Virus record (IMG/VR): IMGVR_UViG_3300002301_000012
Coordinates: 30,041-94,040 of that record
DNA: 64,000 nucleotides
Direction: 5' to 3' (one strand)
Origin: a virus
A program made the position numbers and the translations under genes. The notes beneath the pieces were generated by a model. That model was not told the origin of the DNA, made no database searches, and was given only the letters and a program-made list of their open reading frames with translations. This document shows positions 7,771-33,651 of this stretch, one piece after another. Every line of letters starts with the position of its first letter. Position 1 is the stretch's first letter.

Positions 7771-8508
7771 GTGCCAGAGTTAAAATCACCGAAACATGAA
7801 TATTTTGCTATCGGCATCACAAACGACGTAAACCCTACGGAGGCTTACATTTCCGCTGGGTATTCGAAAGCTGGCGCGGCTGCCGGCGCATGGAGATTGT
7901 TAAATCTCAAAAAAATTCGTGATAGGATTAACGAATTACGAGCAGAAAGACACGCTGCCATCACAAAACGTGTGATAGAAGGCGAGATTCTGACGACGAC
8001 TGAATGCCTGATTGCTGAACGCAATCAACAGGTTAGGCTAAAGTGGCAGCGGTATCAAAAGCTATCACAAATTGTGCAGGAACGGACATCGTTCTTCACT
8101 GATCCAAAGAACGAGGCGATAATCGCACTGGGTGGACCGGACAAGCTTCCAGGCGTCGATACTGGCTTCGTGACGCTACGGTACAGGACACTTGGCCGAA
8201 AGGTCGTGCCGGAACTGAATCTGGATGTGCCTTTGTTGCGCGAGATGAGCTTACTGGAGGAACAGGTCGGTCGAATGATGGGATTCATCCAGCCGATCAG
8301 TATTAGCCAGACGAACAACAGTCAGACGGTCGCTGTGCAAGCCGTTCAGGCGAATGTATACATGCGGGACAAGCCACCTGAATTAGTCGGTCGGTCTGTT
8401 GATCAATTGCGAAAACTGATGGACCTCGCCAAGGCATGTCAGGCTTCTGGCGTTCACGTGGAACTGCCGCAACTTTCAGCGCCGCCTCCTGCTGCCGATG
8501 CTCGGTGA
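7771..8508 (+). CDS. terS: Terminase small subunit
   Basis: LKSPKHEYFA...TEAYISAGYS....A.RLL....IRDRINELR HTH, immediately upstream of TerL. Confidence 0.85.
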   Translation: MPELKSPKHEYFAIGITNDVNPTEAYISAGYSKAGAAAGAWRLLNLKKIRDRINELRAERHAAITKRVIEGEILTTTECLIAERNQQVRLKWQRYQKLSQIVQERTSFFTDPKNEAIIALGGPDKLPGVDTGFVTLRYRTLGRKVVPELNLDVPLLREMSLLEEQVGRMMGFIQPISISQTNNSQTVAVQAVQANVYMRDKPPELVGRSVDQLRKLMDLAKACQASGVHVELPQLSAPPPAADAR

Positions 8509-10243
8509 AGAGTTATTCACGAAAACGCAGAATGCTGCTGTCTGGTCCGCAATGTACCAGCCAGAAATCTATCGAGACAGGCCCGATGACTTTTCGCACA
8601 TGGTGCTCGACTCCGAAACATGGAGCAAGCAAAGCGAAATACTCAACAGCTTATGTCGTTATGGGCAGACGTGGGTTAAAGCCTGTCACGGTTCAGGCAA
8701 GAGTTATGCTGCGGCGCTGGCTTTGCTGTACTGGCTTGGGATCTGGGACGATGGCGTAGTCATATCAACCGCGCCGAAACAAGATCAAGTTGAACGCATA
8801 CTCTGGGGAGAAGTTCATGCTGCGATTCGTCGCAGCAAGTATCCGTGGCCGCAGCCAAACGTCGCCAGCCTGCGATTCAACGAAAAGCGTTATGCGACAG
8901 GAACGACCACTACAGTTACAGCGCAAAAAGGTTCAACAGCATTTCAGGGCACACACTCCGGCCATGTCCTGATCATCGTGGACGAGGCACCTGGTATTCA
9001 TCCTGCAATCTGGGGTGCTATCGAAGGTATTCGTGCGGCCGGCTACGTCCGCGTGCTGGCACTCGGCAACCCAACTATTCCCAGCGGTCCATTTTACGAT
9101 GCTTTCACCACTCGGTCGCCGAACATCAACTGCATTACGATTTCAGCATTCGACACGCCGAACTTCAAAGACGTGTATCTGAAGTACATAGACACACAGA
9201 CTGGCAAAATCGTTATTTTCGGCAACCTCAACGGGCGCAACCTTCTGGAGATGGATGTCGACGAACTGAACGACAATCCTGCGCCATATCTGACGACCAA
9301 AAGCTGGGTGCGCGAACTGTACGACAAGGTGGGACCGGATCACTACAGCTTCATATCGCGAGCGCTGGGACAATTCCCGCACGAAGCACCGGATTCTCTT
9401 ATCTCTCTTCGTTGGCTGGAACTGGCTGCCGAACGCGAGTTCTTTGCGGAAGATAATGACAAACCGATCAAAGGTGGTATCGACGTTGCCGGCCCAGGCG
9501 AGGACGAGACAACACTGTTTTTGCGCCAAGGTCGGAACGTGCTGCTACAGAAGGCATATCCAGAGGCTGACCCAACAGGACGTGTGCTGGCTGATCTGAT
9601 GCCGTTTAGGGATCGCATAGAAAACCTGAATATCGATGCTGATGGGATCGGATACTACTTCGCCAAAACCATCGAAAGCAATGGCTACAAGGTAACGTTT
9701 TGCCACGCTGGATGGGCAGCTATCGACACAGATCAATTCTTCAATTGGAAGGCTGAGATGTACTGGGGTTTCCGGATGCGGTGTCAGGCCGGCGACATCG
9801 CGGGATTAAAGGATTCCGTCACCTCTGGACAATTAACCACAATCCGTTGGAATAATAACCCCAGGGGTCAGACGGTGATAGAGTCAAAAGAGGATGCGAG
9901 GAAGCGCGGCGTGAAGTCACCGGATCGCGCAGAAGGAGCGATGCTTGCCTTCGCAGAGGCTCCAGTGCATGGAATCCTCGAACTTTGGCGCGATGAGTAT
10001 GAGGCGCAAAAGCGCAAGGCACCAGAGCCTCGCGGTCCGAAGGTGGAGGATACCACCGCGATACCGTTTAAAGAGCAGGCAGCCGCAGCCAAAGAAGAAT
10101 CCGAAGTGCCATGGACTAAGGCACCAGAATCAGCGCCTAAGCTACCAGCGCGGCCTGTGTGCGACCAGTGCGGTTCCACTGGCGTCCGTGTATTCAGCGA
10201 GGCGTGGCAATGCGCTGTGTGCGGTGCAAGCGGTAAGATCTGA
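8498..10243 (+). CDS. terL: Terminase large subunit with C-terminal Zn-ribbon extension
   Basis: Walker A KACHGSGKS, Walker B IIVDEAPG, LGNP, and nuclease motifs GIDVAGPGEDET and SPDRAE. Confidence 0.95.
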   Translation: MLGEELFTKTQNAAVWSAMYQPEIYRDRPDDFSHMVLDSETWSKQSEILNSLCRYGQTWVKACHGSGKSYAAALALLYWLGIWDDGVVISTAPKQDQVERILWGEVHAAIRRSKYPWPQPNVASLRFNEKRYATGTTTTVTAQKGSTAFQGTHSGHVLIIVDEAPGIHPAIWGAIEGIRAAGYVRVLALGNPTIPSGPFYDAFTTRSPNINCITISAFDTPNFKDVYLKYIDTQTGKIVIFGNLNGRNLLEMDVDELNDNPAPYLTTKSWVRELYDKVGPDHYSFISRALGQFPHEAPDSLISLRWLELAAEREFFAEDNDKPIKGGIDVAGPGEDETTLFLRQGRNVLLQKAYPEADPTGRVLADLMPFRDRIENLNIDADGIGYYFAKTIESNGYKVTFCHAGWAAIDTDQFFNWKAEMYWGFRMRCQAGDIAGLKDSVTSGQLTTIRWNNNPRGQTVIESKEDARKRGVKSPDRAEGAMLAFAEAPVHGILELWRDEYEAQKRKAPEPRGPKVEDTTAIPFKEQAAAAKEESEVPWTKAPESAPKLPARPVCDQCGSTGVRVFSEAWQCAVCGASGKI

Positions 10244-10249
10244 GAACGC

Positions 10250-10277
10250 AAAAAAGCCCGCTCCGGAAGAGCGGGCT
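10250..10277 (-). terminator. Intrinsic terminator between convergent units
   Basis: agcccgctc-cggaa-gagcgggct stem with an A6 tract on the left (U-tract on the minus strand). Confidence 0.75.
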
Positions 10278-10606
10278 GGTGCTGTCTAAGCAGCGGCTCA
10301 GAAATTCGCTCCAGACATGCAAGCGAAATCTGATCTTTTTTAAGCGAGCAGCCCTTTGAGCCGGATAGTAAAACGGCGGATATCGTCATGCGGACCACCC
10401 GCAGCCAGCAGAGACCAGTCGCAGAGCCTTGTCCAGCAGCAGACCGCCTTTGCCACAACACTGCGGTGCTGTTCATTTCCGGCTATTCGATGCGTGGATA
10501 TCCAGCGCTCTTGCACACGACTGGAACATGCGAAGGACTCCTGCCTCGTTTTCCCAGTCACCTTCGATGCTTTGCATCCAGATTAAATTGTCCAGCCAGA
10601 CAGGGT

Positions 10607-10771
10607 TCATCGTTTTCCTTTCTTCGTTCGCGGGCTGGCCGCTATCGCCAGTCGCACGCTGACTGCATTCTGTGCGCTCCGTTGCTCGGAGTCGAGCTTA
10701 CTCCACCGGGACAGTGCTGCCTCACGACGGGCGACGCTGACCTCCGCGCGGGATTTACGCTTGCGCGGCAT
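10607..10771 (-). CDS. Small basic protein (54 aa, MPRKRKSRAE...)
   Basis: Hand-translated. Abuts the upstream stop and is ATGA-coupled to a further 45-aa ORF (10473..10610). Confidence 0.5.
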   Translation of the reverse strand: MPRKRKSRAEVSVARREAALSRWSKLDSEQRSAQNAVSVRLAIAASPRTKKGKR

Positions 10772-11038
10772 TCAGATCGTTATCCTTCCACACTTTGCGT
10801 AAGTGCTGCGGATAGTTCGCAGGTCGCCGTATTCCGTGATCCAGCCGTTAACCGTAAGCCACGCATCAGCGTCTTCGTTCATCGCTTCGCGTGCCTGGCG
10901 AACCGTAAGCCCCTGTGCCATTTCCGTGCTAAAGGCATCGGTAGTGCCGATCTCTCGTACAATTCGCGCCGCAGCGGCTTCTGCCGACACCGAGCGAAAC
11001 TGAATCTTCATGTTGGTCGAATTGATGATGGTTACCAT
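10772..11038 (-). CDS. Hypothetical protein
   Basis: 88-aa ORF with GGAGG RBS. Confidence 0.65.
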   Translation of the reverse strand: MVTIINSTNMKIQFRSVSAEAAAARIVREIGTTDAFSTEMAQGLTVRQAREAMNEDADAWLTVNGWITEYGDLRTIRSTYAKCGRITI

Positions 11039-11041
11039 GGC

Positions 11042-11236
11042 TTATTTCGCCTCCTGTGTGGAGTATCTGTACTTGACGACACTGCCGAACAGGTCGTGTG
11101 TAACGCCAGGTGAGCGTAGCGTACTGTATCTACCGGCACGCAGGTAGTAGATCGCATTCATGATGCTGCGCCATGCTCCAGGTGACTTGGTATCGTCCGC
11201 TGCCTGTGCGAGAACTTCAATCGGATCGATCTTCAT
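11042..11236 (-). CDS. Hypothetical protein (MKIDPIEVL...)
   Basis: AGGAG RBS before the ATG at 11236, downstream of the promoter at 11296-11324. Confidence 0.6.
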   Translation of the reverse strand: MKIDPIEVLAQAADDTKSPGAWRSIMNAIYYLRAGRYSTLRSPGVTHDLFGSVVKYRYSTQEAK

Positions 11237-11295
11237 TTGCTTTTCTCCTATTTTCGTTTCCATTTTTTCCCTCGATCAACCTTCGATCTGATACC

Positions 11296-11324
11296 AGTAT
11301 ACACGGTGCAAATGCACTTTGCAA
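11296..11324 (-). promoter_or_regulatory. sigma70-like promoter TTGCAA-N17-TATACT
   Basis: Read directly. The spacer contains the palindrome gtgcaaatgcac, a possible operator. Confidence 0.65.
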
Positions 11325-11592
11325 TACATGATGCAAATGGTTTGCGAAAGAAAGGCGAACGTACTGTTAAATCATGTCGTACAATGAGTCCTATGGAGCC
11401 ACCAAACCGCCAGTGCAGATGCGTTAACACCGATCCGATGAACTGCCGCAGGTATCGCGGACTGACTGGAGCCTGTGCTTGTCTTTGCCACGGCCAGCCA
11501 CAGCAGAAGGCCACCACTGCGCAGGAACTGCGAAAGCCGACAGGAACGCGGTCGGAGTTGAAAAAGTAGCACGGTGAAACATTACGCTGAAT

Positions 11593-11796
11593 ATGGATAC
11601 TAGAAACGCTTTTGAATCATTGGCTGCCGGCCTGAAGCGACGGAATAAGGCCAAGCGAAGCCAGCGCAGTCGGTTCAACGGGCCGTTGCCGGGATGCCAA
11701 GTGAAGGAGATTCACTGCTCTGGCAAGTGCAAGCAGTGCCTTGCAGTTCGCTCGCGCAACTACCGGCGATTCGGAACTACCGTTGCACCTCAGTGA
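11593..11796 (+). CDS. Small Cys-rich protein
   Basis: 67-aa ORF with C..H.C..C..C. A similar small Cys-rich ORF ends at 11569. Confidence 0.45.
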   Translation: MDTRNAFESLAAGLKRRNKAKRSQRSRFNGPLPGCQVKEIHCSGKCKQCLAVRSRNYRRFGTTVAPQ

Positions 11797-12061
11797 TTCG
11801 CGACCACTGCGCAATCGGCGGCGACAGCATTCCCTGCGAACGGAACCATATCTTCCATCCATCGCGTTCAAGTTGACGGTTAGCCTCGTTCCACTTCCAT
11901 CCACCGTGAACGCGAAGTCGGTCTTTCATATCTTCGATGGAAGTGTCTGGCGTGTATGGTTTGTAGCGTCCGAACAAATCGGGTCCGCTGCCAGCCCATG
12001 GAATAAGCGCGGCATCGGCACGTCCTGCTGCTATTGAGTCCTCAATGTCTTGAATATTCAA
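11777..12061 (-). CDS. Hypothetical protein
   Basis: 94-aa ORF coupled to the methylase stop. Confidence 0.5.
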   Translation of the reverse strand: MNIQDIEDSIAAGRADAALIPWAGSGPDLFGRYKPYTPDTSIEDMKDRLRVHGGWKWNEANRQLERDGWKIWFRSQGMLSPPIAQWSRITEVQR

Positions 12062-12690
12062 AATTGCAAAACCCCTTGGCTCAATCTTTTGGCAGAGATT
12101 TCACAATACCGCTCCTCGATCTCGATTCCGATGCACCGACGATTTAGATCCTTGCAGGCACGTGCTGTTGTGCCAGATCCTAAGAACGGGTCCACAATTA
12201 ATTCACCTTCCAGCGATGCACGATTGATAAGCCACTTCCATTGATCGATAGGCTTCGGACAGGGATGGCCGTTCTTTTCTGCTGCGGTTGTCGCAGTGTA
12301 AGAATCAGGACGAGAGCCTTTCCCCGCATATGGGTCAGTGCCGTAAAACAGGATCGGCTGCCAACAAGTGAATCCCCACGGATTGACGCCAGATCCGGCA
12401 GGATAGGAAAAACTTCCGATCCAGTCCGGTTGAGGGTATCTGAATAGATGGCGGATTCCGCTGGTTAAAGCGATTCGCTTGGTAGAAAATCGCAATAGTG
12501 CAAGAACGGACAGTGCCAGCGTAACATCGTCTGCTGAATCGTGGCCGCTGGCGTAGTTCTCTCCGATGCCATACTGAGGATCTGTAATTGCGGCGTCGAA
12601 ACCTGCCTCGCATAATGCAGGCAGTAGATCCAAGCAGTTCGCGTGGTAAATCGTAATACCAGCCTGTTCATCCACGAAGTAAGGTTTCAT
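12058..12690 (-). CDS. N4/N6 DNA methyltransferase (beta class)
   Basis: ITIYHANCL, ITDPQYG, HPCPKP, VDPFLGSGTT and IGIEIEERYC motifs. Confidence 0.9.
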   Translation of the reverse strand: MKPYFVDEQAGITIYHANCLDLLPALCEAGFDAAITDPQYGIGENYASGHDSADDVTLALSVLALLRFSTKRIALTSGIRHLFRYPQPDWIGSFSYPAGSGVNPWGFTCWQPILFYGTDPYAGKGSRPDSYTATTAAEKNGHPCPKPIDQWKWLINRASLEGELIVDPFLGSGTTARACKDLNRRCIGIEIEERYCEISAKRLSQGVLQF

Positions 12691-12893
12691 TTTTGTTCGA
12701 AGTCCAATATACGCTGGTTGGCAAAGCGAAGTCGAGTCCTGCCAGCACGCCAGAGCTTACCAAGGCGGCTGCGCTCTGCTGGCGACCGGCGCGACCATAC
12801 CAGCTTCATTGCGGCGCTGCGGTTGCCGTTCACGGACGGCCTGTTTTTTCTCGTTGACAGTTCGCCTCTCAATGGATAATACTATAGCAAGTA

Positions 12894-13082
12894 GTGAGCG
12901 ACGAGACAACAGGAAATACAGTATCGATCAAGGCAAGGCTACGCAAGTGCCGCTTTTGCGGTTACGAGTGGGCGCTCAGATCGCTATTGCGTCCTGAGCC
13001 GACACGGTGCCCTAACAACGCCTGTCGGTCGACACGGTGGAAGGAAGGAACGAGGAGACGTGGAAAAAACAAACCAGCCTGA
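12894..13082 (+). CDS. Small Zn-ribbon protein
   Basis: CRFCGYEW...PTRCPNNACRSTRW. Confidence 0.7.
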   Translation: MSDETTGNTVSIKARLRKCRFCGYEWALRSLLRPEPTRCPNNACRSTRWKEGTRRRGKNKPA

Positions 13083-13890
13083 AGAAAATCAGGTAGTAAT
13101 ACAGGAGGCATCGTCGGACCTTCAGTTCTCGATCCACATGGAGCGCGTTCAGCAGGGTCCAACGTTCAACGACCTGCGCAAGATGTCGCGGCACGAGCGG
13201 TTGCGCCCGCTCATAGAGCAGCGCAAAGACCGCATCTATGCGGCTCCGTGGAAGTTCGAACCTGAGTCGCGGTACTGGCGCGGCAGCGATACGATCCAGA
13301 TGTCGCGAAGGCTGACAGAAGTATTTGCTGAGCCAGACGGCCTGATTCCATTTCAAAAGTGGCTGCGCATCGTGCTGGAGGATGTGTTCGTTGTCGATGC
13401 GGTCGCAGTGTATATCGAGAAGCGAGCGTTCAAGAAGCCACTATCAGAGGTTTTCCCTGATGGAATATCGGAAACGACCATTCGGCCTTACTTTCGACTG
13501 ATCGATCCTTCCACGATTGCATTAATAGTCGACCAGTTCGGCAACCGGCCAGTCTACACAGCAGAGCATCCTGTGCCGTTTGCAGTGCAGGCAACGGACG
13601 ACGAGCCAGTGTTTTTCAGCGAAAAGGAGCTTTACCACGGCATTCGGCACGACCGGCGCAAAGACGGCTGGCTGTGGGGCAAGAGCAAGATCGAGCAGGT
13701 CGCGGCGCTGGAGTACGAGTGCTCGCAGATGGTACTGAAGGAAAGCAAAGACAAGGCCATGTTCGGCGTGTTTGAACCGCTGATTGGCGACACTGCCGGC
13801 GACCTGGACTGGCTGGAAGAAATGATCAACGGAATTGTTATGCAGTGCTACGGTGAGACGCATTGCCGGTTCCGCTGGCTGGTGAACTGA
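13060..13890 (+). CDS. Truncated portal-protein paralogue
   Basis: FAEPDGLIPFQKWLRIVLEDVFVVDAVAVY aligns with WAKPDGFNTFRQWLRMLSEDLLVCDAVACY of the 18681 portal. Further collinear blocks are present. Confidence 0.8.
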   Translation: MEKTNQPEENQVVIQEASSDLQFSIHMERVQQGPTFNDLRKMSRHERLRPLIEQRKDRIYAAPWKFEPESRYWRGSDTIQMSRRLTEVFAEPDGLIPFQKWLRIVLEDVFVVDAVAVYIEKRAFKKPLSEVFPDGISETTIRPYFRLIDPSTIALIVDQFGNRPVYTAEHPVPFAVQATDDEPVFFSEKELYHGIRHDRRKDGWLWGKSKIEQVAALEYECSQMVLKESKDKAMFGVFEPLIGDTAGDLDWLEEMINGIVMQCYGETHCRFRWLVN

Positions 13891-13894
13891 TTTT

Positions 13895-14026
13895 ATGAGT
13901 TACGTGTGGGCTGATCCGTCGAGTAAAGATTGCATTGGCAAAGATGACGAACGTCCTTCACTGGCCGGGGCGATTTTTCTGGTCGTTCTGATCGTTGCGG
14001 CGCTTTCATTCTGGAAAGGACAGTAG
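13895..14026 (+). CDS. Small membrane protein (43 aa)
   Basis: Hand-translated, fills the intergenic gap, TM segment LAGAIFLVVLIVAALSFW. Confidence 0.5.
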   Translation: MSYVWADPSSKDCIGKDDERPSLAGAIFLVVLIVAALSFWKGQ

Positions 14027-14029
14027 GCT

Positions 14030-14401
14030 GTGCATCAGTCCATCCTCTACGACATCCTCGGTGTAAAGCGCGGCGCTACGGTTGACGAAATCAACAAAGC
14101 GTATCGCAAGCGAGCGTTCGACCTGCATCCGGATCGAAACCATAATCCAGATGCGCTGGAACAGATCAATCTACTGAATGTCGCGCGGGCCACGCTGGTC
14201 GACAAAAAGAAGCGAACGCAGTACGATGCCTCATTGATTCGGCTAGGCGGTGTCAGCCACGCCTGGTTCTGTCCTGAGTGCGATAACGTGCAGGTCTTTG
14301 TCAGCCAATACATCTGGAAGTGCAATGTATGTGGGCTGTGGGGAAGGCTGATCAAGGTAGCTGCTTACATCGGTGAGGAAGTGAAGGAGGTTCCCGCGTG
14401 A
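14030..14401 (+). CDS. DnaJ J-domain protein with C-terminal Zn ribbon
   Basis: LYDILGV..AT..EINKAYRKRAFDLHPDRN...LVD..KR.QYD with an intact HPD, followed by CPEC...CNVC. Confidence 0.9.
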   Translation: MHQSILYDILGVKRGATVDEINKAYRKRAFDLHPDRNHNPDALEQINLLNVARATLVDKKKRTQYDASLIRLGGVSHAWFCPECDNVQVFVSQYIWKCNVCGLWGRLIKVAAYIGEEVKEVPA

Positions 14402-14715
14402 TAGCGTACTGGTTCACTTGGTTATTTCTGGCTCTGGCAATAGCGTTCAACATGTATGTTCACTGGCGTGTTCGGCACGACCCAATGTGGCCGGATCGAG
14501 CGTTAGACGAACTGAGGTACACAATTCGCACTTTTCGGATTGTTGAACGACGGAAGGCTATACGTAAATACAAGCAGAAGATTGCTGAAGGAATGCGGCG
14601 ACCTAGGAAGGTCGAGATCATTGAATACGTGTGGGGACGCTGCATGACCAACACTGAAATCGAGTTTCTGATTTATGGGAATAACCTGATCGGTGGCAGG
14701 AGGTTTCCGAAGTGA
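14398..14715 (+). CDS. Membrane-anchored hypothetical protein
   Basis: N-terminal TM helix, GTGA-coupled on both sides. Confidence 0.65.
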   Translation: MIAYWFTWLFLALAIAFNMYVHWRVRHDPMWPDRALDELRYTIRTFRIVERRKAIRKYKQKIAEGMRRPRKVEIIEYVWGRCMTNTEIEFLIYGNNLIGGRRFPK

Positions 14716-14987
14716 CACAATCCATGCTCAACTTTGATCCGCCATCCATCCCGGTCAATGTGACAGTGGACCAGCGGGAAGTCAAACGCCTGTCGAAGCA
14801 GTGCGCCGCTATCCTCGAACGACTGCAAGCCGGCGATGCCACGAACCACGAACTGGCGCAGATTGCTCTGAAGTACACCAGCCGAATAAGCGACCTTCGT
14901 GCAGCTGGATACCAGATCGAAGTGGCTTCTCGCGATCACGATTCCGGCCTTGTTTGGTATAGACTAGTCAAGGAGAAAACGCAATGA
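14712..14987 (+). CDS. Winged HTH DNA-binding protein
   Basis: ILERLQAG.ATNHELAQIALKYTSRISDLRAAGYQIE...Y.L. Confidence 0.75.
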   Translation: MTQSMLNFDPPSIPVNVTVDQREVKRLSKQCAAILERLQAGDATNHELAQIALKYTSRISDLRAAGYQIEVASRDHDSGLVWYRLVKEKTQ

Positions 14988-15403
14988 CGAAGCCTGATTT
15001 GATGCTTTGCATGGCAGCCGCCGCTTGTTTATTTATGGTACGCGGTTCGGCCATGTACTTGCTTCGTTATTGGCACTGGTGGCGAGCACGTAAAGCTCTT
15101 GAGCGATTGCAGACACTAATGCAAAGCAGCGGTCCTGAGACATCGTACAAGCTGGCTATCGTTCAGCAGGCGTTGCTGGAACGCAAACCGCGACTGTTTC
15201 CTGTTCTTCGCGCCAACATCAATGCGTTGCGCGCGCTGGCCATTCTGTTGCCGGTAGCGATAAAGACTGTACTTCTGTGGAACCACGAGTTAACGTGGAC
15301 ATTCGTGGCCAGCCGGTATCCTGCCGAATGGAAACGGGCGTGCGCGATTTGTCCTAAATACGAAACAGTTCGCCAGCGGGAAGGCGTGAAGGAAATCGCA
15401 TGA
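14984..15403 (+). CDS. Hypothetical membrane protein
   Basis: ATGA-coupled ORF with hydrophobic segments. Confidence 0.6.
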   Translation: MTKPDLMLCMAAAACLFMVRGSAMYLLRYWHWWRARKALERLQTLMQSSGPETSYKLAIVQQALLERKPRLFPVLRANINALRALAILLPVAIKTVLLWNHELTWTFVASRYPAEWKRACAICPKYETVRQREGVKEIA

Positions 15404-15921
15404 TCTTTGAGCGCATCGGGCGGATATTCGCTCCCTCAAATTCGGTTGAAAAACCGGAAGTGGCCACCGATAAACCGTTGATAGAAAAGCCAGTTGCAGA
15501 TGAGGCGAATTGCTCAAGCATAAAGGGCAGATCGATGGTCGGCTACTCTCGGCGTGGGTTCTTGGGAATGCTGGCATCAGCTGCGGTCGCCTCTGAGATA
15601 AAAAAACCAGAATGGTTGAGCGAAATTCGGGATCGCGCTGATGCTCATGTTGCCAATCTCGCAGACGGTGGATACTACGACATAAAGTGGCCTATCAAAA
15701 CGCGGTGGCATGAGTTCGGTGTTTTGTGTACAGAAACACTAGAGGTTTTTATTCCGATGCAATCGCCTGTTGGTCTATCGCGTGGCGAGTACCATGTATC
15801 GGAGACTGGCGTTTTTACCTTCAATCAGGCCGACGCGAATAAAACCGTATCGATTTCACACAATGAATACGCGCGAAGAAAGTGTCCGGCGACTGCTGCG
15901 CTACCGTGGGACCACCGATGA
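15400..15921 (+). CDS. Chimeric protein: twin-arginine motif + capsid C-terminus-like segment + tail-tube-like segment
   Basis: SRRGFLG motif, plus internal alignments to the 27888 capsid and 32899 tail tube (see findings). Confidence 0.7.
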   Translation: MIFERIGRIFAPSNSVEKPEVATDKPLIEKPVADEANCSSIKGRSMVGYSRRGFLGMLASAAVASEIKKPEWLSEIRDRADAHVANLADGGYYDIKWPIKTRWHEFGVLCTETLEVFIPMQSPVGLSRGEYHVSETGVFTFNQADANKTVSISHNEYARRKCPATAALPWDHR

Positions 15922-16355
15922 AATTGATTCTGTTTGGTTTGATCCTGATTAGCGCCAATATCGCAGTGATCTGGTTGACGTTGCAGTTTCTACCGGCGAC
16001 AGTCTGGCCGGTACTGTACTATCGCAAGGCGCAACGCGCATGGGTGAAACACTCCCCTTTGCTTGATGCCAGGTGGCGTCGGCTGAAGTACTGGCCGCAC
16101 AAAGTCGCTCGGTCCTGGATTGAACGCTGGATGATTTGGCGTGTCCGCGAATACTTTCTGTGGTTCCCTGATCGGACCACCTGTCCAGCGTGCGGAAAGA
16201 AGGCTGTTCATCCGTTCGAGTTCCATCCGCAGGCGCGAGTCCTTCGAGTGACTTGCTTACGCTGCAAAGCCAACTTTCCGAAGCAGCCGATATATAGTGC
16301 GGCATCGTGGATGCCGGATCTACCAGTGGCAAAACCAAACAAGGAGCAGGAGTAG
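15918..16355 (+). CDS. Membrane-anchored Zn-ribbon protein
   Basis: MKLILFGLIL... TM segment, CPAC...CLRC, ATGA coupling. Confidence 0.65.
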   Translation: MKLILFGLILISANIAVIWLTLQFLPATVWPVLYYRKAQRAWVKHSPLLDARWRRLKYWPHKVARSWIERWMIWRVREYFLWFPDRTTCPACGKKAVHPFEFHPQARVLRVTCLRCKANFPKQPIYSAASWMPDLPVAKPNKEQE

Positions 16356-16361
16356 AAAAAA

Positions 16362-16562
16362 ATGAACGAAGAACCTCAATCGAAAGAACCATCTGGATTT
16401 GTTGTGCCAGTGAAGGCGATATCTGAAACACGGCTGGTTCACCAGGCCATTCAGGTATCGCGGCGCGACGAGCGAAACAGGGAAAACCATTCACTCGGTC
16501 TGCATGTGGATCGGATTCCGACCTGTCCAGACTGTCCACCGTACAGAGAGACACGTGCATGA
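16362..16562 (+). CDS. Hypothetical protein
   Basis: 66 aa, AGGAG RBS. Confidence 0.55.
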   Translation: MNEEPQSKEPSGFVVPVKAISETRLVHQAIQVSRRDERNRENHSLGLHVDRIPTCPDCPPYRETRA

Positions 16563-16879
16563 CCGGCGACCAGCGGATGTTCATTCGAAGACATTTGCAG
16601 TTTTTCGAGGAGGTTGATCCTCGGAATGGCAGACGCGCTGCAATTCGGGCGGCTTACGATTCAGGAATTAAAGCGCTGGAGATCGCTCGGTTTCTGCGGG
16701 TTCATCACAAAGCCGTCTATGCGGCAATACACCACAAACGGCCGGCCAAGACAACACTGGAGATGGCGCGGAAGCAGATCATCACCGCCCGCAAAGCGAT
16801 GTCACGAGCGCAAAGTGCATTGCGTGTTGCCGAAGGCAAAGAACGGGCGGCGCTGGAAAGGTTGAAGCTACGAGCATGA
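16559..16879 (+). CDS. HTH-containing protein
   Basis: AYDSGIKALEIARFLRVHHKAVYAAI. Confidence 0.6.
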   Translation: MTGDQRMFIRRHLQFFEEVDPRNGRRAAIRAAYDSGIKALEIARFLRVHHKAVYAAIHHKRPAKTTLEMARKQIITARKAMSRAQSALRVAEGKERAALERLKLRA

Positions 16880-17118
16880 GGCGCGTAAAGACTGCCGTTC
16901 CTATGGATGAGTGCAAGCGCAGGGTGTTAGCATTCATCCGCAAAGAGCCTAAGCGTTTACACAAAGCCTCTGAGTTTGCCTGTGAAATATGGCCTGACTC
17001 GGAATTTACAGCGCAAGGTGCCGGAGCCGCTGCTAGTCGTATTCTCAAGGCTTTGGAAAAAGATAACCTGGTTGAATGGATCAGTTCGACTGCGGACTGG
17101 GGATGGAGGTTACGATGA
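16876..17118 (+). CDS. Winged-helix protein
   Basis: AASRILKALEKDNLVEW...WRL, ATGA-coupled. Confidence 0.6.
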   Translation: MRRVKTAVPMDECKRRVLAFIRKEPKRLHKASEFACEIWPDSEFTAQGAGAAASRILKALEKDNLVEWISSTADWGWRLR

Positions 17119-17321
17119 GCCTTGAAGTCTACGGCGACGGCGATGCGGAAGACCTCTGCGAACTCGCAAACCGCTACGATCACAGCCTGTATCCAGATGG
17201 CAAGTGGCGCGAAGACGACTCGGAGCCAGGTAAGACCGACGCCGAGATGTGGGAGTACGTGGAAGACAGACGGCAATCGGATCTGGAGGATATGGCGTTG
17301 AGCGGGGAGGATATGGCGTGA
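17115..17321 (+). CDS. Small acidic protein
   Basis: MSLEVYGDGD..., GGAGG RBS, coupled to its neighbours. Confidence 0.55.
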   Translation: MSLEVYGDGDAEDLCELANRYDHSLYPDGKWREDDSEPGKTDAEMWEYVEDRRQSDLEDMALSGEDMA

Positions 17322-18547
17322 GTTTCGAGATCAGGCAGGGTCATACGCTCGACTTGCTCCGTGCGATGCCAACCGATAGCGTCCATTGCGTCTGTTCCTC
17401 GCCCCCCTACTGGGGGCTGAGGGATTACAAGATCGAACCTCAGATATGGAACGATCCCGGCAACTGCGAACATCACTTTACGGATGAAGAAATCGCTACT
17501 GAAGTCGGCCGGGGAAATTGGGCGCAGGCGGTTAATGGCCGTGGGGAGGCACAAGGAGATATCGCTGCCTTCCGTGAACCGATCCGAGCGACACAGTCGC
17601 GGGGCTTCTGTGCGTGTGGTGCCTGGCGTGGGCAACTCGGCATGGAGCCGACGCCGGAATTATTCATCGCGCATATTACCGATATCTTCCGCGAAGTACG
17701 CCGGGTGCTCAGACCAGACGGTACGTGCTGGATCAATATTGGTGACTCGTATGCCGCGCATCCTGGACAGCGCAAGACGACGGATAAGGCTGGTCCTAAG
17801 CAGCAGACGAATACAGCGTCTCCCCAGACGCCTTCACGCTGCGTCGATGGCCTTAAAGCCAAGGATCTCGTTGGCATTCCGTGGATGATGGCCTTTGCGC
17901 TTCGTGCCGACGGTTGGTATCTGCGTTCTGAGATCATCTGGCAGAAAATCAATCCCATGCCGGAATCGGTACGTGATCGACCGACAAAGGCGCATGAGCA
18001 AATCTTTCTTTTATCAAAGTCTTCAAAGTATTGGTACGACGCTGATGCGATTAAGGAACGGGCCGGAGACGATACGCACGCTCGATACGCGCGGGGTCGA
18101 TCAGACGACCACAAATGGGCCGATGGTGGACCAGGCAACCAATCCATAGCGAAATCATTCGCGCATATGGCAAACCGCGAACGTGTCCGCGCGGCTGGCG
18201 TGAATCCGAAGTGCGCCGAACCGGGCAGCGGGATCAAGCAGAACTCCAGTTTCAGCGCAGCGGTCAAAGACATCGTTGAATACCGCAACAAGCGCGACGT
18301 ATGGCCGATGGCTTCCATGCCAACACCGGAGGCGCATTTTGCTACCTTCCCGCTGGAGTTGCCGGAAACCTGTATTCTCGCTGGTTGTCCGCCGGATGGT
18401 CTGGTGCTCGATCCGTTTTCCGGGGCCGGAACCACTGGACTCGCCGCACTGAAGCATGGTCGTAGCTTTCTCGGGCTGGAACTCAATCCTGAATACATCG
18501 CCATCGCCCATTCCCGCCTGAACAAAAGGATGCCCCTGTTCGCTTAA
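17318..18547 (+). CDS. N4-cytosine/N6-adenine DNA methyltransferase
   Basis: SSPPYWGLRDY, VRRVLRPDGTCWINIGDSY, HFATFP and LDPFSGAGTT motifs. GGAGG RBS before the GTG. Confidence 0.92.
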   Translation: MSFEIRQGHTLDLLRAMPTDSVHCVCSSPPYWGLRDYKIEPQIWNDPGNCEHHFTDEEIATEVGRGNWAQAVNGRGEAQGDIAAFREPIRATQSRGFCACGAWRGQLGMEPTPELFIAHITDIFREVRRVLRPDGTCWINIGDSYAAHPGQRKTTDKAGPKQQTNTASPQTPSRCVDGLKAKDLVGIPWMMAFALRADGWYLRSEIIWQKINPMPESVRDRPTKAHEQIFLLSKSSKYWYDADAIKERAGDDTHARYARGRSDDHKWADGGPGNQSIAKSFAHMANRERVRAAGVNPKCAEPGSGIKQNSSFSAAVKDIVEYRNKRDVWPMASMPTPEAHFATFPLELPETCILAGCPPDGLVLDPFSGAGTTGLAALKHGRSFLGLELNPEYIAIAHSRLNKRMPLFA

Positions 18548-18641
18548 ACCTATTATGCAGATTTCCAACTTCAAACCCCTCGACAAAAACACCCTACGCG
18601 GCGTGTTATAGCCAGTTAGTTTCCTACTGACTAATCCTGTA

Positions 18642-18671
18642 TAGCGAAGAACAGTGCCTTTCGGTTATGAT
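18642..18671 (+). promoter_or_regulatory. Putative late promoter TAGCGA-N18-TATGAT, 9 nt before the portal ATG
   Basis: The same geometry recurs at 25655, 40352 and 48340. Confidence 0.6.
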
Positions 18672-18680
18672 ACGCACTGA

Positions 18681-21600
18681 ATGGCCAACTTCCAGGTACC
18701 AGAAGGCGCAAAGCGTCTTGGACCGATCAATGCTTTGATCGGAACGCAACCAACACAAGTCGCTGGTGTTTCGCCGTCGTTCTGGTTTTCTCCTCTTCAG
18801 CCTGTAACGCCAACAGCGCCATCCGATTACAAACCTCGCCAGTGGGGCTATCAACCTGGTGCCAACCTCATTTGGCAGCCGAAGTCGGACGAAGGCTACG
18901 GTTACGATCTGCTGCGTCAACTGTCTTTGTCTTGGGATCTTCTTCGCATGGCGCTGGAGATGAAAAAGGACGAAATCGGAGATGTCGAGTTCGAACTTCG
19001 GCTGAAGCGACAGGACAACGAGAAGCAGGCAGACTACAAAAACAGGACGCTGAAAGGCGCGAAAGAACTGCAAGACCTTAAGCAGTTCTGGGCCAAGCCG
19101 GATGGTTTCAATACGTTCCGGCAGTGGCTTCGTATGCTATCCGAAGATCTTCTGGTCTGCGATGCCGTAGCCTGCTATCTTCCGCGCGACAACAAAGGCA
19201 AAGTCGCGATGGTCATGCCGACTGACGGCGCATCGTGGAACAGGCTGCTCACCGATCAGGGAATCACTCCTCGCGATCCAACCAGCGCTGCATACCAACA
19301 GGTTTGTTACGGCTTCCCTGCATGGGATGGTACAACGCAGGACGTCGTGTTCAGTATGCAGAACCCGACAACATACCGGCGCTATGGGTACTCCCGCGTT
19401 GAAAGATGCCTGACAACAGTGGCCTTCGGTATTCGTCGTCAGATGTTCCAGATTGCGGAGTACTGCTATTCATCCGACACTGAGGTACTGACAAGCCGTG
19501 GTTGGCTGAAGTGGCCTGATGTCACCATGGACGATACATTTGCAACGCGGCGCATGGAAAGTGGCGAGTTTGAATGGCAGAAGGCTGAAGGTTACATTCG
19601 GAAACAGTTCAACGGTAATTTGATCCGTTTCAAAAATGTAAGCCTTGACATTTTGGTGACGCCAAACCACAGGATGCTCGTTGGTGACCTGCCCGGCAGA
19701 TACCAGCGCGGTTGTCCTACAGCAAAAGTTCCTCGCATCAAAGAGTGTTTAGTCGAAGCTTCCAATTTGGCTCTTCAGAGAGCGTTGTCAGGCCCGAACA
19801 TTTCGGCGTGGATTCCACAGGTTTCCGAATGGAATGGCGGCGTCCGTATCGAAGACAAGGTGTGGTTGTCTCCGAACAACAAAGAGATAACCGTTCGCAT
19901 GACAGGTGATCAGTACTGTGCCTTCATGGGCATGTACTTGGCAGAGGGATGCGTTGGCGGCAGCGAAAAACCTACACTTGTTCATATCTGCCAGCCAAAA
20001 GACAAAAAAGGAATCCATCAGATTTTCAGTGACATGTTGTCTGAGATCTTTGGTGCAGACGTACACCACGACGGAAAGATGTTTTCATGGTCACGAAAAT
20101 CATTGGCCTTGTACCTTCGGCAATTCGGGCTAGCAAATGAAAAGTTCATACCTGAAGAGATTAAGAACGCGCCCAAAGATCAATTACAGATATTCTGGCG
20201 ATACTACGCATTGGGTGATGGCGAATCGGCGACTGCTATCGGCGAAAAGAAACGTTCTCAGCAGGTATTCACTGTTAGTAAAAAACTGTCTGACGATCTG
20301 ACGGAAGTTGTGCAAAAAATAGGTTTGCGCCCAAATGTCGGTGTTCGCGCTGCGGGCAAAGCCTTTTTCGGTAAACCAGGACTGGGACGTGAAATAAACG
20401 CTAGTGAAGGCTATACGATAACTGCGACCGACCAGCCATGCACAAGAAATTGGGATGTTGAATTTGTCCCTTACGATGGTGAAGTGTTCTGCGTATCGGT
20501 GCCGAACCACACGTTGTATGTTCGGCGCAATGGGAAACATGCGTGGTGCGGGAACACGGCCGGCAATATACCGGAAGCGTTTTTGTTCATGCCTTCGGAC
20601 ATTCCACCGCAGCGACTGAAGGAGTTTCAGGATTACATCGATTCGATCCTAAGCGGTAATCTTGCGGAGCGTCGCAAGATCCGTATGATGCCTGGATTCG
20701 GCGACAGCGGCAAACCGAACATCGTGTTCCCGAAGGAAGCGCTGCTCAAAGATGAACTGGACGTGTGGTTGGCGCAGCTGGTTTGTGCGATTGTCGGCGT
20801 GAGTGCGCAGCCGTTCCTCAAAATGGTGAATCGCGCAAGTTCAGAAGAAGCGAACGACGCAGCCCGCGAAAAGTGGCTGAAGCCTGATGTCGATTTCTTT
20901 TGCGAGTACATTAATACCTGCCTTGAGCGCATGGGAATGGATCAGTACGAAATAGCTGCGAAGGCGCAGCGCGATACCGATCCACTGAAGCAGGCGCAGG
21001 CAGATGCGGCGGTGTGGGGTAAGGTTTACACGCCGAACGAACTTCGCGAGCAGCGCGGAGAAGATCCTGTGGAAGGCAAGAACGCAAACCGGCTCGGTGT
21101 ACTCAGTCCGATGAACGGTTTCATGCCACTCGATCCTGATGATGACGATCTGGCTTTGATGCAGCAAATGAAGGCTACTCCTCCCAAACCTGACGGAAGT
21201 GGTGGAGGTGGAGGTTCGCCGGCACCGAACGGCGGCGGTAGCGGTGGCAGCCCGAAGCCGAAGACTAAACCATCTGCAAAGAAATCGTTGGCAGCAACGT
21301 GGGATCTTGAAAAAGATCACAAGTACGGATGTATCATGGTTCCAATCGATCCAGCGTCCGAAGCCGGTCTTCGCATGAAAGCAATGAGGGATGCAATACC
21401 AGATGCAGACCTGATGGAAGGCAACGGAACCTCGCGCGAGGAAGAACCGCATGTCACTGTGCGATACGGGATCAAGGACGGCGGCGAAGGTCTGCCGGAA
21501 TACCTGACTGGCCTTGCACCATTCACGCTGAAGTTCGGTAAAACAATGGCATTTGCGCCTTCTGAACAGTCTGATGGCGCGGCTCCGCTGGTGGTTCAGG

Positions 21601-32898: not shown

Positions 32899-33651
32899 AT
32901 GTATCAATTTGGTGATGGACTCATGTTCGTGGCTCCTGTGGGAGGCAACGAGGCGACCAATCCTTCGCCGTCGCAATTGCTGACGGTCCAGAGTTTCAAA
33001 TTCGACGTCAAGGTTACACTGGTGCCTCTGAAGGGGCAAAACCAGTTTCCCGATGACGTGGCACCGGGCGATAAAGAAGGGTCCGGATCTTTCGCCATCG
33101 GCAATAACCAAATCACGCAGGAGAACAATATTCTCTATGCCGATGCGCTGACAACAGGCATTAAACAAGTGACGCAGCAAACGGCGGCTATTCCAGGTTC
33201 ACCGTTTTCGATCACTGTGACCAACAGCGCCAACTTTTTCAAAGATCTTGGCGTGCGCAACTCCGCGACAGGCGCATTTTTCCAAGCCGTGGCCAGCGGA
33301 CCTACTGCTGGGCAGTATTCCGTCGCTGCTGGTGTGTATACATTTTCAACGGCAGACCATACTTCCGGTGTCAGTGTCATCATCAGCTATGCATGGACAG
33401 ATTCCAGCGTCGGAAACACGCTGACGGTAAACAATCAACTGATGGGCTACGGACCAATCGTGGAAATCTGGTTCTCGGAAACCTATCAGAGCGTTTCAGG
33501 CAATCCGAACGGACTTCATCTGTTCAATTGCCGCATCGGATCGGTGAAAAAGGATATTAAGCGAGACGGCTATCTGGTGCCTGAATACGACTTCATGGCA
33601 TATCCGAATTCGTCGAATCAGGTCTTCGAAGAGTTCCAGGTCGCCAACTAA
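32899..33651 (+). CDS. Tail tube protein with auxiliary beta domain
   Basis: MYQFG.G...L.GQNQFP..VA.G; AAGGAG RBS; followed by a terminator and the chaperone gene. Confidence 0.8.
   Translation: MYQFGDGLMFVAPVGGNEATNPSPSQLLTVQSFKFDVKVTLVPLKGQNQFPDDVAPGDKEGSGSFAIGNNQITQENNILYADALTTGIKQVTQQTAAIPGSPFSITVTNSANFFKDLGVRNSATGAFFQAVASGPTAGQYSVAAGVYTFSTADHTSGVSVIISYAWTDSSVGNTLTVNNQLMGYGPIVEIWFSETYQSVSGNPNGLHLFNCRIGSVKKDIKRDGYLVPEYDFMAYPNSSNQVFEEFQVAN

What the first reader, a model, noticed from the sequence alone, without database searches (positions are those of the whole stretch)
13060..13890. Second, internally deleted portal paralogue in the accessory island
Seen: four collinear blocks match this phage's own portal: FNDLRKMS..RLR..IE.RKD.I vs YDLLRQLS..LLR..LE.KKD.I; PDG...F..WLR...ED..V.DAVA.Y; WGKSKIEQ vs YGYSRVER; DLDWLEEMIN vs DVDFFCEYIN. 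About 125 portal residues between the last two blocks (excluding the intein) are replaced by ~30, and both termini are missing. The ORF is intact and strongly diverged, so it is not a fresh remnant. Known: phages use one portal, and Avs-type NLR defences sense portal folds. Inference: the missing part is the stem/clip, leaving a wing-only portal that could be a decoy for portal-sensing immunity or a dominant-negative inhibitor of competing phages.
Basis: partly seen in the sequence, partly recalled or inferred. Interest (0 to 1): 0.82.

Follow-up and report, generated by a model that had tools for sequence, protein, structure and literature searches.

The report
Stand-alone portal wing domain gene
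An uncultivated 94-kb phage carries, besides its real portal gene, a small conserved gene for just the outer "wing" of a portal protein, so it cannot form a DNA channel and probably acts as a soluble mimic of the portal surface; its role is untested.

Summary
Window 13060-13890 (+) encodes a 276-aa protein homologous to HK97-type portals. A profile of the short family against a portal profile gives E 9e-32 for aa 27-215. The C-terminal block aligns collinearly with E 6e-5. About 125-129 portal residues are replaced by a 33-aa linker, and both portal termini are absent. The AlphaFold2 model (pLDDT 87.7) matches solved portals (Z 19.6, 240 residues aligned). Set against a modelled full-length relative, the missing parts are the lower stem helix, the clip, the second stem helix, the tunnel loop, half of the long wing helix, and the crown. 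It is therefore a closed-up wing domain.

It is not a decaying remnant. Six clusters (18 variants, 36-54% identical) keep the same architecture, the same ends and an invariant linker. The family is rare. It is absent from the TerL-portal region of 29 related phage loci, where TerL and portal are mostly 0.3-1.4 kb apart, so it is an accessory gene in a variable insertion hot spot.

Function is inferred only. I favour a non-channel mimic that competes for partners of the portal wing. A decoy for Avs4 or SpbK is disfavoured, because those sensors contact the clip and stem, which this protein lacks. This looks like a new variant of a known fold, of moderate interest.

The parts
13060..13890 (+). 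Mini-portal gene: 276-aa stand-alone portal wing domain (P0001), GTG start, purine-rich SD-like stretch just upstream
13138..13704 (+). aa 27-215: N-terminal alpha/beta part of the portal wing plus the start of stem helix alpha-3; homologous to portal profile positions 65-233 (P0010 numbering)
   Evidence: hhalign E 8.8e-32; hmmsearch with the portal HMM E 7e-32
13705..13803 (+). aa 216-248: rest of the shortened alpha-3 helix and a family-specific hydrophobic linker. Residues A233, F235, F238, E239, P240 and G243 are invariant. It replaces ~125 portal residues (lower stem, clip, alpha-5, tunnel loop, first half of alpha-6)
   Evidence: invariant columns; secondary structure of the two models
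13804..13887 (+). aa 249-276: C-terminal half of the long wing helix and the last wing beta-strand (CRFRW); the protein ends where the portal crown would begin
   Evidence: hhalign E 6.3e-5 to P0010 359-385; second-domain hits in many portals
12854..12883 (+). Sigma-70-like promoter candidate (TTGACA-18-AATACT, 10/12) in the divergent intergenic region, just after a terminator-like hairpin at 12825-12840; it could drive the rightward operon that holds the mini-portal
   Evidence: consensus scan only; the number of sites in the region is near chance
12894..13082 (+). 62-aa Cys-rich (Zn-ribbon-like) ORF overlapping the mini-portal start by 23 nt; first gene of the putative operon
   Evidence: no similarity to the N-terminal extensions of longer family members
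10244..18680 (.). 8.4-kb accessory island between terL and portal: two N6/N4 DNA methyltransferases, a J-domain protein, small TM and Zn-ribbon ORFs
   Evidence: related phages have TerL-portal gaps of 0.26-1.4 kb, one of 7.1 kb
8498..10243 (+). Large terminase subunit
   Evidence: phrog_2, E 4.5e-23
18681..23873 (+). The phage's real portal: 1730-aa fusion of an HK97-type portal, a 2',5'-RNA-ligase/Acb1-like domain and a MuF domain, interrupted by two inteins (intein 1 = aa 262-625, nt 19464-20555)

Best explanation
Shown:
- The gene encodes a compact, stand-alone copy of the wing domain of an HK97-type portal protein.
- The unit that threads down and back through the ring (lower alpha-3 stem, clip, alpha-5 stem, tunnel loop, first half of alpha-6) has been replaced by a conserved 33-residue hydrophobic linker.
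- The portal's conserved N-terminal ~65 residues and the crown are absent.
- The same architecture is kept in six sequence clusters 36-54% identical, so it is under selection.
- The gene is absent from the equivalent region of related phages. It is therefore an accessory gene, not part of the core head-assembly set.

Inferred from established portal biology:
- Without clip, stem, tunnel loop and crown it cannot line a DNA channel, dock terminase or the head-tail adaptor, or make most of the inter-subunit contacts of a dodecamer.
- What it keeps is the surface that portals present to neighbouring wings, to scaffolding protein and to the capsid shell.

Mechanism I commit to (inference): a soluble, non-channel mimic of the portal wing that competes for a wing-binding partner. 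By doing so it modulates or poisons portal-ring formation or incorporation. The likely target is co-infecting related phages. Alternatively it tunes assembly of the phage's own very large, intein-interrupted portal fusion. It is probably made from the island's own promoter rather than as a stoichiometric virion part.
For: Homology and collinearity.

Fold: AF2 pLDDT 87.7, pTM 0.84. Every top Foldseek hit is a portal. VIA-align gives Z 19.6, rmsd 4.0, 240 of 276 residues aligned to the phage 812 portal, spanning chain 64-433, so ~130 chain residues are skipped.

Mapping of the loss:
- The full-length relative P0010 has H228-251, a clip region (E258-262, H268-281, H286-289, E292-296), H314-326, a loop, H343-373, E379-383 and crown helices H391-416.
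- The mini has only H210-224, two short linker helices, H246-264 and E269-273.
- This matches the wing definition of the solved YonE portal: wing 60-240 plus 369-414, stem/clip/tunnel 249-368, crown 415-465 (PMC12847820).

Selection:
- 18 intact variants in six 90% clusters share the same ends.
- 47 columns are invariant, including the novel linker.
- The family forms one clade, SH-aLRT 99.

Accessory status:
- None of the 29 loci around related portals (36-52% identical; a 543-aa downstream protein, possibly the capsid protein, is 53-55% identical) has a second portal-like ORF.
- TerL and portal there lie 0.26-1.4 kb apart in four loci and 7.1 kb apart in one.

Wing as an interaction site: abstracts of PMC13386823 and PMC9320234 describe the P22 and HSV-1 portal wing as the site of scaffolding-protein interaction.

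Charge: all six minis are acidic over the wing (median pI 5.3, net charge -6.5). The own-portal clade is at pI 7.9 and other portals at 7.1. This points to a changed surface, not simple retention.
Against: - No interaction, oligomeric state, expression timing or phenotype is known.
- At ~30% identity to its own portal and 32-39% to any other, co-assembly with a particular portal is not predictable.
- The promoter call is a consensus match in a region where the number of matches is near chance.
- Neighbouring genes (methyltransferases, a weak Lar-like hit) fit an anti-defence reading at least as well.
- Absence from relatives was checked only within +/-10 kb of their portals.
Confidence: 0.4

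Rival explanations
1. Immune decoy or shield. The wing-only protein binds a host sensor of portal proteins (Avs-type STAND, ring-sensing RAZR-like, or another) without triggering it. Alternatively it caps nascent portal monomers so they are not sensed.
For: - Island context: two DNA methyltransferases and a weak Lar-like hit, plus weak partial similarities of two neighbouring ORFs to the phage's own TerL C-terminus and a tail-module protein.
- Many Avs families sense core structural proteins, including the portal (bioRxiv 10.64898/2026.01.04.697583).
- RAZR assembles around the circumference of portal rings, which is the wing side (PMC13017515). A non-ring-forming wing could in principle compete there.
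Against: - As summarised in PMC12847820, EcAvs4 contacts the stem, the clip and only part of the wing. SpbK docks on the clip. The mini lacks both regions.
- For Avs proteins, target binding is itself the activating step, so a binder is not obviously an inhibitor.
- RAZR-monomer contacts are described as probably weak.
- The family is very rare: six clusters in 5.8 billion proteins. It is not spread across unrelated phages, as many anti-defence genes are.
Confidence: 0.2
2. Exapted domain. The wing fold has been recruited for a task unrelated to portals or their partners, such as binding a host factor together with the neighbouring J-domain protein.
For: - Long stem branch of the family.
- Consistent acidic shift.
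- Loss in three of five aligned members of an Asp that is invariant in the 26 aligned portals (the VIDA motif).
- Invariant family-specific linker.
- Operon neighbours are non-structural.
Against: Most wing residues invariant across portals are still kept: F36, R49, K56, W64, P92, W101, E107. This is expected if portal-type contacts or fold constraints persist.
Confidence: 0.2
3. Genuine minor virion or assembly component needed by this phage, for example an extra ring or a vertex-associated protein.
For: It lies on the same strand as, and upstream of, the late structural operon. The portal wing fold naturally contacts capsid and scaffold.
Against: - Related phages with a homologous portal and downstream head genes lack it near the portal.
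- It sits in a variable insertion hot spot.
- It has lost four of the five elements that hold portal rings together.
Confidence: 0.1
4. Non-functional leftover of a portal gene broken by recombination or imprecise intein loss, open by chance.
For: The deleted segment spans the site where the real portal carries its intein (aa 262). The gene lies in a recombination-prone island.
Against: - 18 variants in six clusters down to 36% identity are all intact, with identical architecture and ends and 47 invariant columns.
- The model is compact and confident.
- Real portal fragments in the databases look different, with out-of-frame tails or contig-end cuts.
Confidence: 0.05

Closest known systems
HK97-type phage portal proteins (Pfam PF04860 Phage_portal; TIGR01537 portal_HK97), including portal-MuF fusions
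   Same: Same wing fold and the same conserved wing motifs (F..LR, RKD, PDG...W.R...ED, G.S..E). Profile-profile E 9e-32. Structural Z 15-20 to solved portals (812, GTA, HK97, lambda, G20c, T4).
   Different: Lacks the N-terminal ~65 residues, lower stem, clip, tunnel loop, half of alpha-6 and the crown. About half the size. No Pfam or NCBIfam hit at all. It cannot form the channel or the docking sites. The wing is acidic.
Assembly mimics used in phage-satellite conflict, e.g. SaPI CpmB, which resembles the helper's scaffolding protein (own knowledge, not checked here)
   Same: Concept only: a shortened look-alike of a morphogenetic protein that competes for its partner.
   Different: Different protein and fold. 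That mimic is encoded by a satellite, not by the phage itself. No evidence here for any competitor.
Targets of portal-sensing defences (EcAvs4, Avs11, SpbK, RAZR)
   Same: It shares the fold class that these systems recognise.
   Different: The surfaces used by EcAvs4 (stem, clip, part of wing) and SpbK (clip) are mostly deleted (PMC12847820). RAZR needs a ring (PMC13017515).
5'-truncated partial portal copies downstream of full portals in IMG/VR loci L025, L032, L040, L047
   Same: Extra, incomplete portal-derived ORFs in a phage genome.
   Different: Those are 51-99% identical to the adjacent full gene. They lack the 5' part, keep stem and clip, and carry varied C-termini. The mini-portal is 30% identical to its portal, keeps both wing halves and has no C-terminal domain.

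Membership tests
HK97-type portal protein (PF04860 / TIGR01537) | Wing domain fold | tested here: met
   AF2 model; Foldseek E 2e-9; VIA Z 19.6 with 240 residues aligned to the phage 812 portal
HK97-type portal protein (PF04860 / TIGR01537) | Two stem helices joined by a clip domain (terminase and adaptor docking) | tested here: not met
   Only ~15 residues of alpha-3 remain. The P0010 elements E258-262, H268-281, E292-296 and H314-326 have no counterpart
HK97-type portal protein (PF04860 / TIGR01537) | Tunnel loop and full-length kinked alpha-6 helix | tested here: not met
   P0010 327-358 is absent. The mini helix 246-264 matches only P0010 359-373
HK97-type portal protein (PF04860 / TIGR01537) | Crown helices after the last wing strand | tested here: not met
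   The protein ends 3 residues after strand 269-273. P0010 continues with H391-404 and H409-416
HK97-type portal protein (PF04860 / TIGR01537) | Reaches the curated family score | tested here: not met
   No Pfam family at E<=1 and no NCBIfam family at E<=0.1. Only phrog_9232 (portal) at E 0.011
HK97-type portal protein (PF04860 / TIGR01537) | Assembles into a 12-mer ring at one capsid vertex | not testable with these tools
   No multimer prediction and no experiment
Phage anti-defence decoy of a sensed structural protein | Retains the surface bound by the sensor | tested here: inconclusive
   The stem and clip used by EcAvs4 and SpbK are deleted (PMC12847820). The wing periphery relevant to ring sensors is retained. 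Nothing is known for Avs11
Phage anti-defence decoy of a sensed structural protein | Blocks activation of the sensor | not testable with these tools
   Needs co-expression assays
Orphan recombination cassette of a polymorphic portal/MuF fusion | 5'-truncated copy nearly identical to the parent gene, with an alternative C-terminal domain | tested here: not met
   30% identity to the parent, N-terminal wing present, no C-terminal domain. Contrast L032 and L047

The most novel reading that the evidence does not exclude
Phages of this lineage make a purpose-built, monomeric copy of the portal wing as a molecular mimic. It either blunts host immunity that senses portal surfaces or rings, or poisons portal/scaffold assembly of competing phages. 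That would be a first case of a virus deploying a trimmed copy of its own portal as a weapon or shield.
Probability: 0.3. Interest if true: 0.8.

Novelty: new variant of a known kind. Interest (0 to 1): 0.55.

Why it matters
Portals are regarded as single-copy, indispensable and structurally constrained. That is why several bacterial immune systems use them as infection signals. A conserved, domain-trimmed portal derivative kept as an accessory gene shows that the wing can fold and be selected on its own. It also offers a simple reagent-like protein for asking what the wing binds: scaffold, capsid, neighbouring subunits or immune sensors. If it interferes with assembly or sensing, it would add a new class of phage-encoded mimic. 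If not, it is still a clean natural definition of the autonomous wing domain.

Tried and rejected
- **Contexts of the other family members.** Scans of viral contigs, metagenome contigs and genome contigs with P0001 or the family alignment found no member. The genome search could use neither 'relatives' (virus record) nor locus handles. Synteny and dN/dS for the homologues therefore remain unknown.
- **Close relatives of the phage.** Scans with TerL or the portal N-extein in IMG/VR found none. In cultured phages, only short methyltransferase DNA matches, TerL at 33% identity or less, and weak portal tblastn hits turned up.
- **Other short phmmer hits (142-356 aa).** These are contig-end or frameshifted pieces of ordinary portals, not the mini architecture.
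- **Fusion with the upstream Zn-ribbon ORF.** The mini-portal frame is open back to 12898, but it has no start codon there and no similarity to the N-terminal extensions of P0005. Rejected.
- **Orphan-cassette idea.** Rejected; see the membership test.
- **Primary Avs4 structure paper.** Not held. I relied on its summary in PMC12847820.
- **Prior descriptions.** A literature search for truncated or second portal proteins found nothing relevant.
- **Model coordinates.** Not available to scripts, so no surface or interface mapping was done.
- **Leads not verified.** The ESM Atlas lists several unnamed viral clusters of 245-291 aa with similar features. BFVD holds a 247-aa portal-fold protein from Bacillus phage phiBTP1. 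No accession or paper was found for the latter.

Full report
**Setting.** The window is the right-hand 64 kb of a single 94,040-bp contig whose ends overlap, so it is probably a complete phage genome. No cultured phage is close: TerL is at most 33% identical to any. TerS (7771-8508) and TerL (8498-10243) are followed by an 8.4-kb stretch of small genes. These include two N6/N4 DNA methyltransferases (12058-12690 on the minus strand, 17249-18547), a J-domain protein (14030-14401), and Zn-ribbon and membrane ORFs. Next comes a 1730-aa portal fusion (18681-23873). It carries an HK97-type portal, a 2',5'-RNA-ligase/Acb1-like domain and a MuF domain, and is interrupted by two inteins.

**Observation.** The finding's ORF (13060-13890, GTG start, 276 aa, P0001) is as described.
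- All four blocks lie at the stated places in both proteins.
- BLASTP against the phage's portal gives 30% identity over aa 29-137, E 5e-10. This is the strongest match between an island ORF and any structural or packaging protein in an all-against-all comparison of the genome; the only other is a weak 27-residue match (E 0.005) between the J-domain ORF and TerL.
- An exhaustive HMMER search of 1.84 billion representatives returned 435 hits. Three are short full-length relatives. Among the 150 best hits listed, the rest are 500-1400-aa portals matching aa ~28-215, plus short pieces of such portals (142-356 aa).
- A profile of five short family members against a profile of 26 such portals gives hhalign probability 99.9%, E 8.8e-32.
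- The last block was tested separately. The C-terminal 71 residues of the family align collinearly to P0010 359-385 with E 6.3e-5. The family HMM gives the same second-domain hit in some 35 independent portal ORFs.
- The conserved first ~65 portal residues and everything after the last wing strand are absent.

**Structure.** AlphaFold2 with a 64-sequence alignment gives pLDDT 87.7 and pTM 0.84.
- All leading Foldseek matches in the PDB are portals (best E 2e-9).
- VIA-align gives Z 19.6, rmsd 4.0 Å, with 240 of 276 residues aligned to the phage 812 portal. The alignment spans chain residues 64-433, so about 130 chain residues are skipped. Z is 13-17 for GTA, HK97, lambda, G20c, T4 and SPP1 portals.

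To map the loss I modelled an intein-free full-length relative (P0010) and used the hhalign register.
- P0010 has a 24-residue stem helix (228-251), a clip (strands and helices 258-296), a second stem helix (314-326), a loop, a 31-residue wing helix (343-373), a strand (379-383) and crown helices (391-416).
- The mini-portal has a 15-residue helix (210-224), two short linker helices (230-242), a 19-residue helix (246-264), a strand (269-273), and then ends.
- This is the wing as defined for the solved YonE portal: wing 60-240 plus 369-414, stem/clip/tunnel loop 249-368, crown 415-465 (PMC12847820).

**Is it a functional gene?** Yes, very probably.
- Two further database searches bring the family to six 90%-identity clusters: P0001/P0003/P0155, P0004, P0167, P0005, P0006 and P0007.
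- There are 18 distinct variants, all intact.
- The window's own protein sequence (listed as P0155) was seen on 75 contigs, up to 98 kb.
- Members are 36-54% identical to P0001. They share the internal deletion and the C-terminal end, and have 47 invariant columns. Six of these lie in the linker (A233, F235, F238, E239, P240, G243), so the novel element is itself constrained.
- The other short database hits are ordinary portal fragments with out-of-frame tails.
- The family forms one clade with SH-aLRT 99.

**Origin.**
- With the own portal's relatives added (P0170-P0176, 46-68% identical), the own-portal group is also a supported clade.
- A tree that forces minis and the own-portal clade together has a higher likelihood than the free quick search found, and is not rejected (p-AU 0.80).
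- Duplication within this lineage is thus compatible and slightly favoured, but long branches are involved and it is not shown.

**Is it core or accessory?** I fetched 29 metagenome loci around portals 36-52% identical to the window's. Their downstream head genes are homologous; the 543-aa protein is 53-55% identical.
- None has a second portal-like ORF within the fetched sequence.
- TerL and portal are 0.26, 0.9, 1.1 and 1.4 kb apart in L088, L094, L083 and L104.
- They are 7.1 kb apart in L089, which has a different set of inserted ORFs.
- Eighty IMG/VR loci around P0010-type portals also lack the short form.
- The TerL-portal junction is therefore an insertion hot spot, and the mini-portal is lineage-specific cargo rather than part of the conserved assembly set.
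- Caveat: only +/-10 kb could be inspected.

**Expression clues are weak.**
- The gene is second in a rightward run of overlapping ORFs that starts in a divergent intergenic region.
- That region holds the best sigma-70-like match of the area (TTGACA-18-AATACT, 12854-12883), just after a terminator-like hairpin.
- The scan's overall count is near chance.

**Mechanism.**

Shown: a stabilised, autonomous wing.

Inferred from general portal knowledge:
- It has no channel, no terminase or adaptor docking, and has lost most ring-forming contacts.
- It retains the surface used for wing-wing, scaffold and capsid contacts. The wing is described as the scaffolding-interaction site in P22 and HSV-1 (abstracts of PMC13386823 and PMC9320234).

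Relative to portals, all six minis have become acidic over the wing: pI about 5.3, against 7.9 in the own-portal clade and 7.1 in others. An Asp that is invariant in the 26 aligned portals is lost in three of the five aligned minis. Both point to a modified interaction surface.

I therefore favour a soluble competitive mimic of the wing that modulates or poisons portal-ring formation or incorporation (confidence about 0.4).

The immune-decoy version is possible (about 0.2), but the available literature weakens it:
[quoted passage not shown] SpbK docks on the clip (PMC12847820). Both regions are deleted here.
- For Avs proteins, binding is itself the trigger.
- A ring-sensing system such as RAZR, which wraps the ring circumference (PMC13017515), is the kind of sensor a non-ring-forming wing might compete with. 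However, per-monomer contacts there are described as probably weak.

Three further rivals are scored in the report sections: exaptation to an unrelated role, a true virion role, and a dead remnant.

**Comparison with known things.**
- It is a homologue of HK97-type portals, but it fails four of their defining structural features and all curated family thresholds. I file it as a portal-derived wing-domain protein, not as a portal.
- I found no description of such a protein.
- It differs from the partial portal copies I came across in four IMG/VR loci. Those are 5'-truncated, 51-99% identical to the adjacent full gene and resemble orphan cassettes.

**Verdict.**
- Observation: confirmed.
- Structural inference: supported.
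- Functional inference: untested, and partly disfavoured for the known clip/stem-directed sensors.
- Novelty and interest: a new variant of a known fold family. Interest is moderate, and would be high if the mimicry were shown to act on immunity or on competing phages.

Noticed in passing
L047:2172-12136; L032:2737-14647; L040:5853-11025; L025:857-6346: Four of 80 IMG/VR loci with P0010-type portals carry further ORFs downstream of the full portal on the same strand. There are 1-5 of them, they are 5'-truncated partial portal copies, 51-99% identical to the full gene and mosaic among themselves, and some have different C-terminal sequence. They look like orphan recombination cassettes of polymorphic portal/MuF fusions, or like assembly artefacts.
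   Followed up: partly
window 15400-15921 and 32899-33651: Island ORF aa 103-152 resembles aa 114-160 of a tail-module protein (phrog_8234): 34% over 50 aa, pairwise E 0.001. The island ORF also hits phrog_8234 weakly (E 1.2e-4).
   Followed up: partly
window 14030-14401 and 8498-10243: The C-terminal Zn ribbon of the J-domain protein (aa 81-107) resembles the C-terminal Zn ribbon of TerL (aa 555-581): 37% over 27 aa, pairwise E 1e-4. This may only reflect the shared CxxC...CxxC pattern.
   Followed up: partly
window 18681-23873: The portal is a 1730-aa fusion: portal, a 2',5'-RNA-ligase-superfamily domain (aa 918-1017, with a weak Acb1 anti-CBASS match), and MuF. It has two inteins. Intein 1 sits at aa 262-625, in the alpha-3/clip junction, inside the segment that the mini-portal lacks.
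   Followed up: partly
L089:2857-9934 versus L088, L083, L094, L104: The TerL-portal junction is a variable insertion site across related phages. The gaps are 0.26-1.4 kb in four loci. One locus has a 7.1-kb island of unrelated unknown ORFs (606 and 513 aa and smaller).
   Followed up: partly
BFVD entry R9RVM6 (Bacillus phage phiBTP1, 247 aa): A short uncharacterised protein of a cultured phage matches the mini-portal model (E 1.8e-7, TM 0.49/0.54). It could be another short portal-fold protein or a partial record. No accession or paper was found.
   Followed up: no
G000 contig ends (genome 1-92 and 93949-94040): The first 50 bases recur at 93949, so the contig ends overlap by about 90 nt. This suggests a complete circular or terminally redundant assembly.
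   Followed up: no
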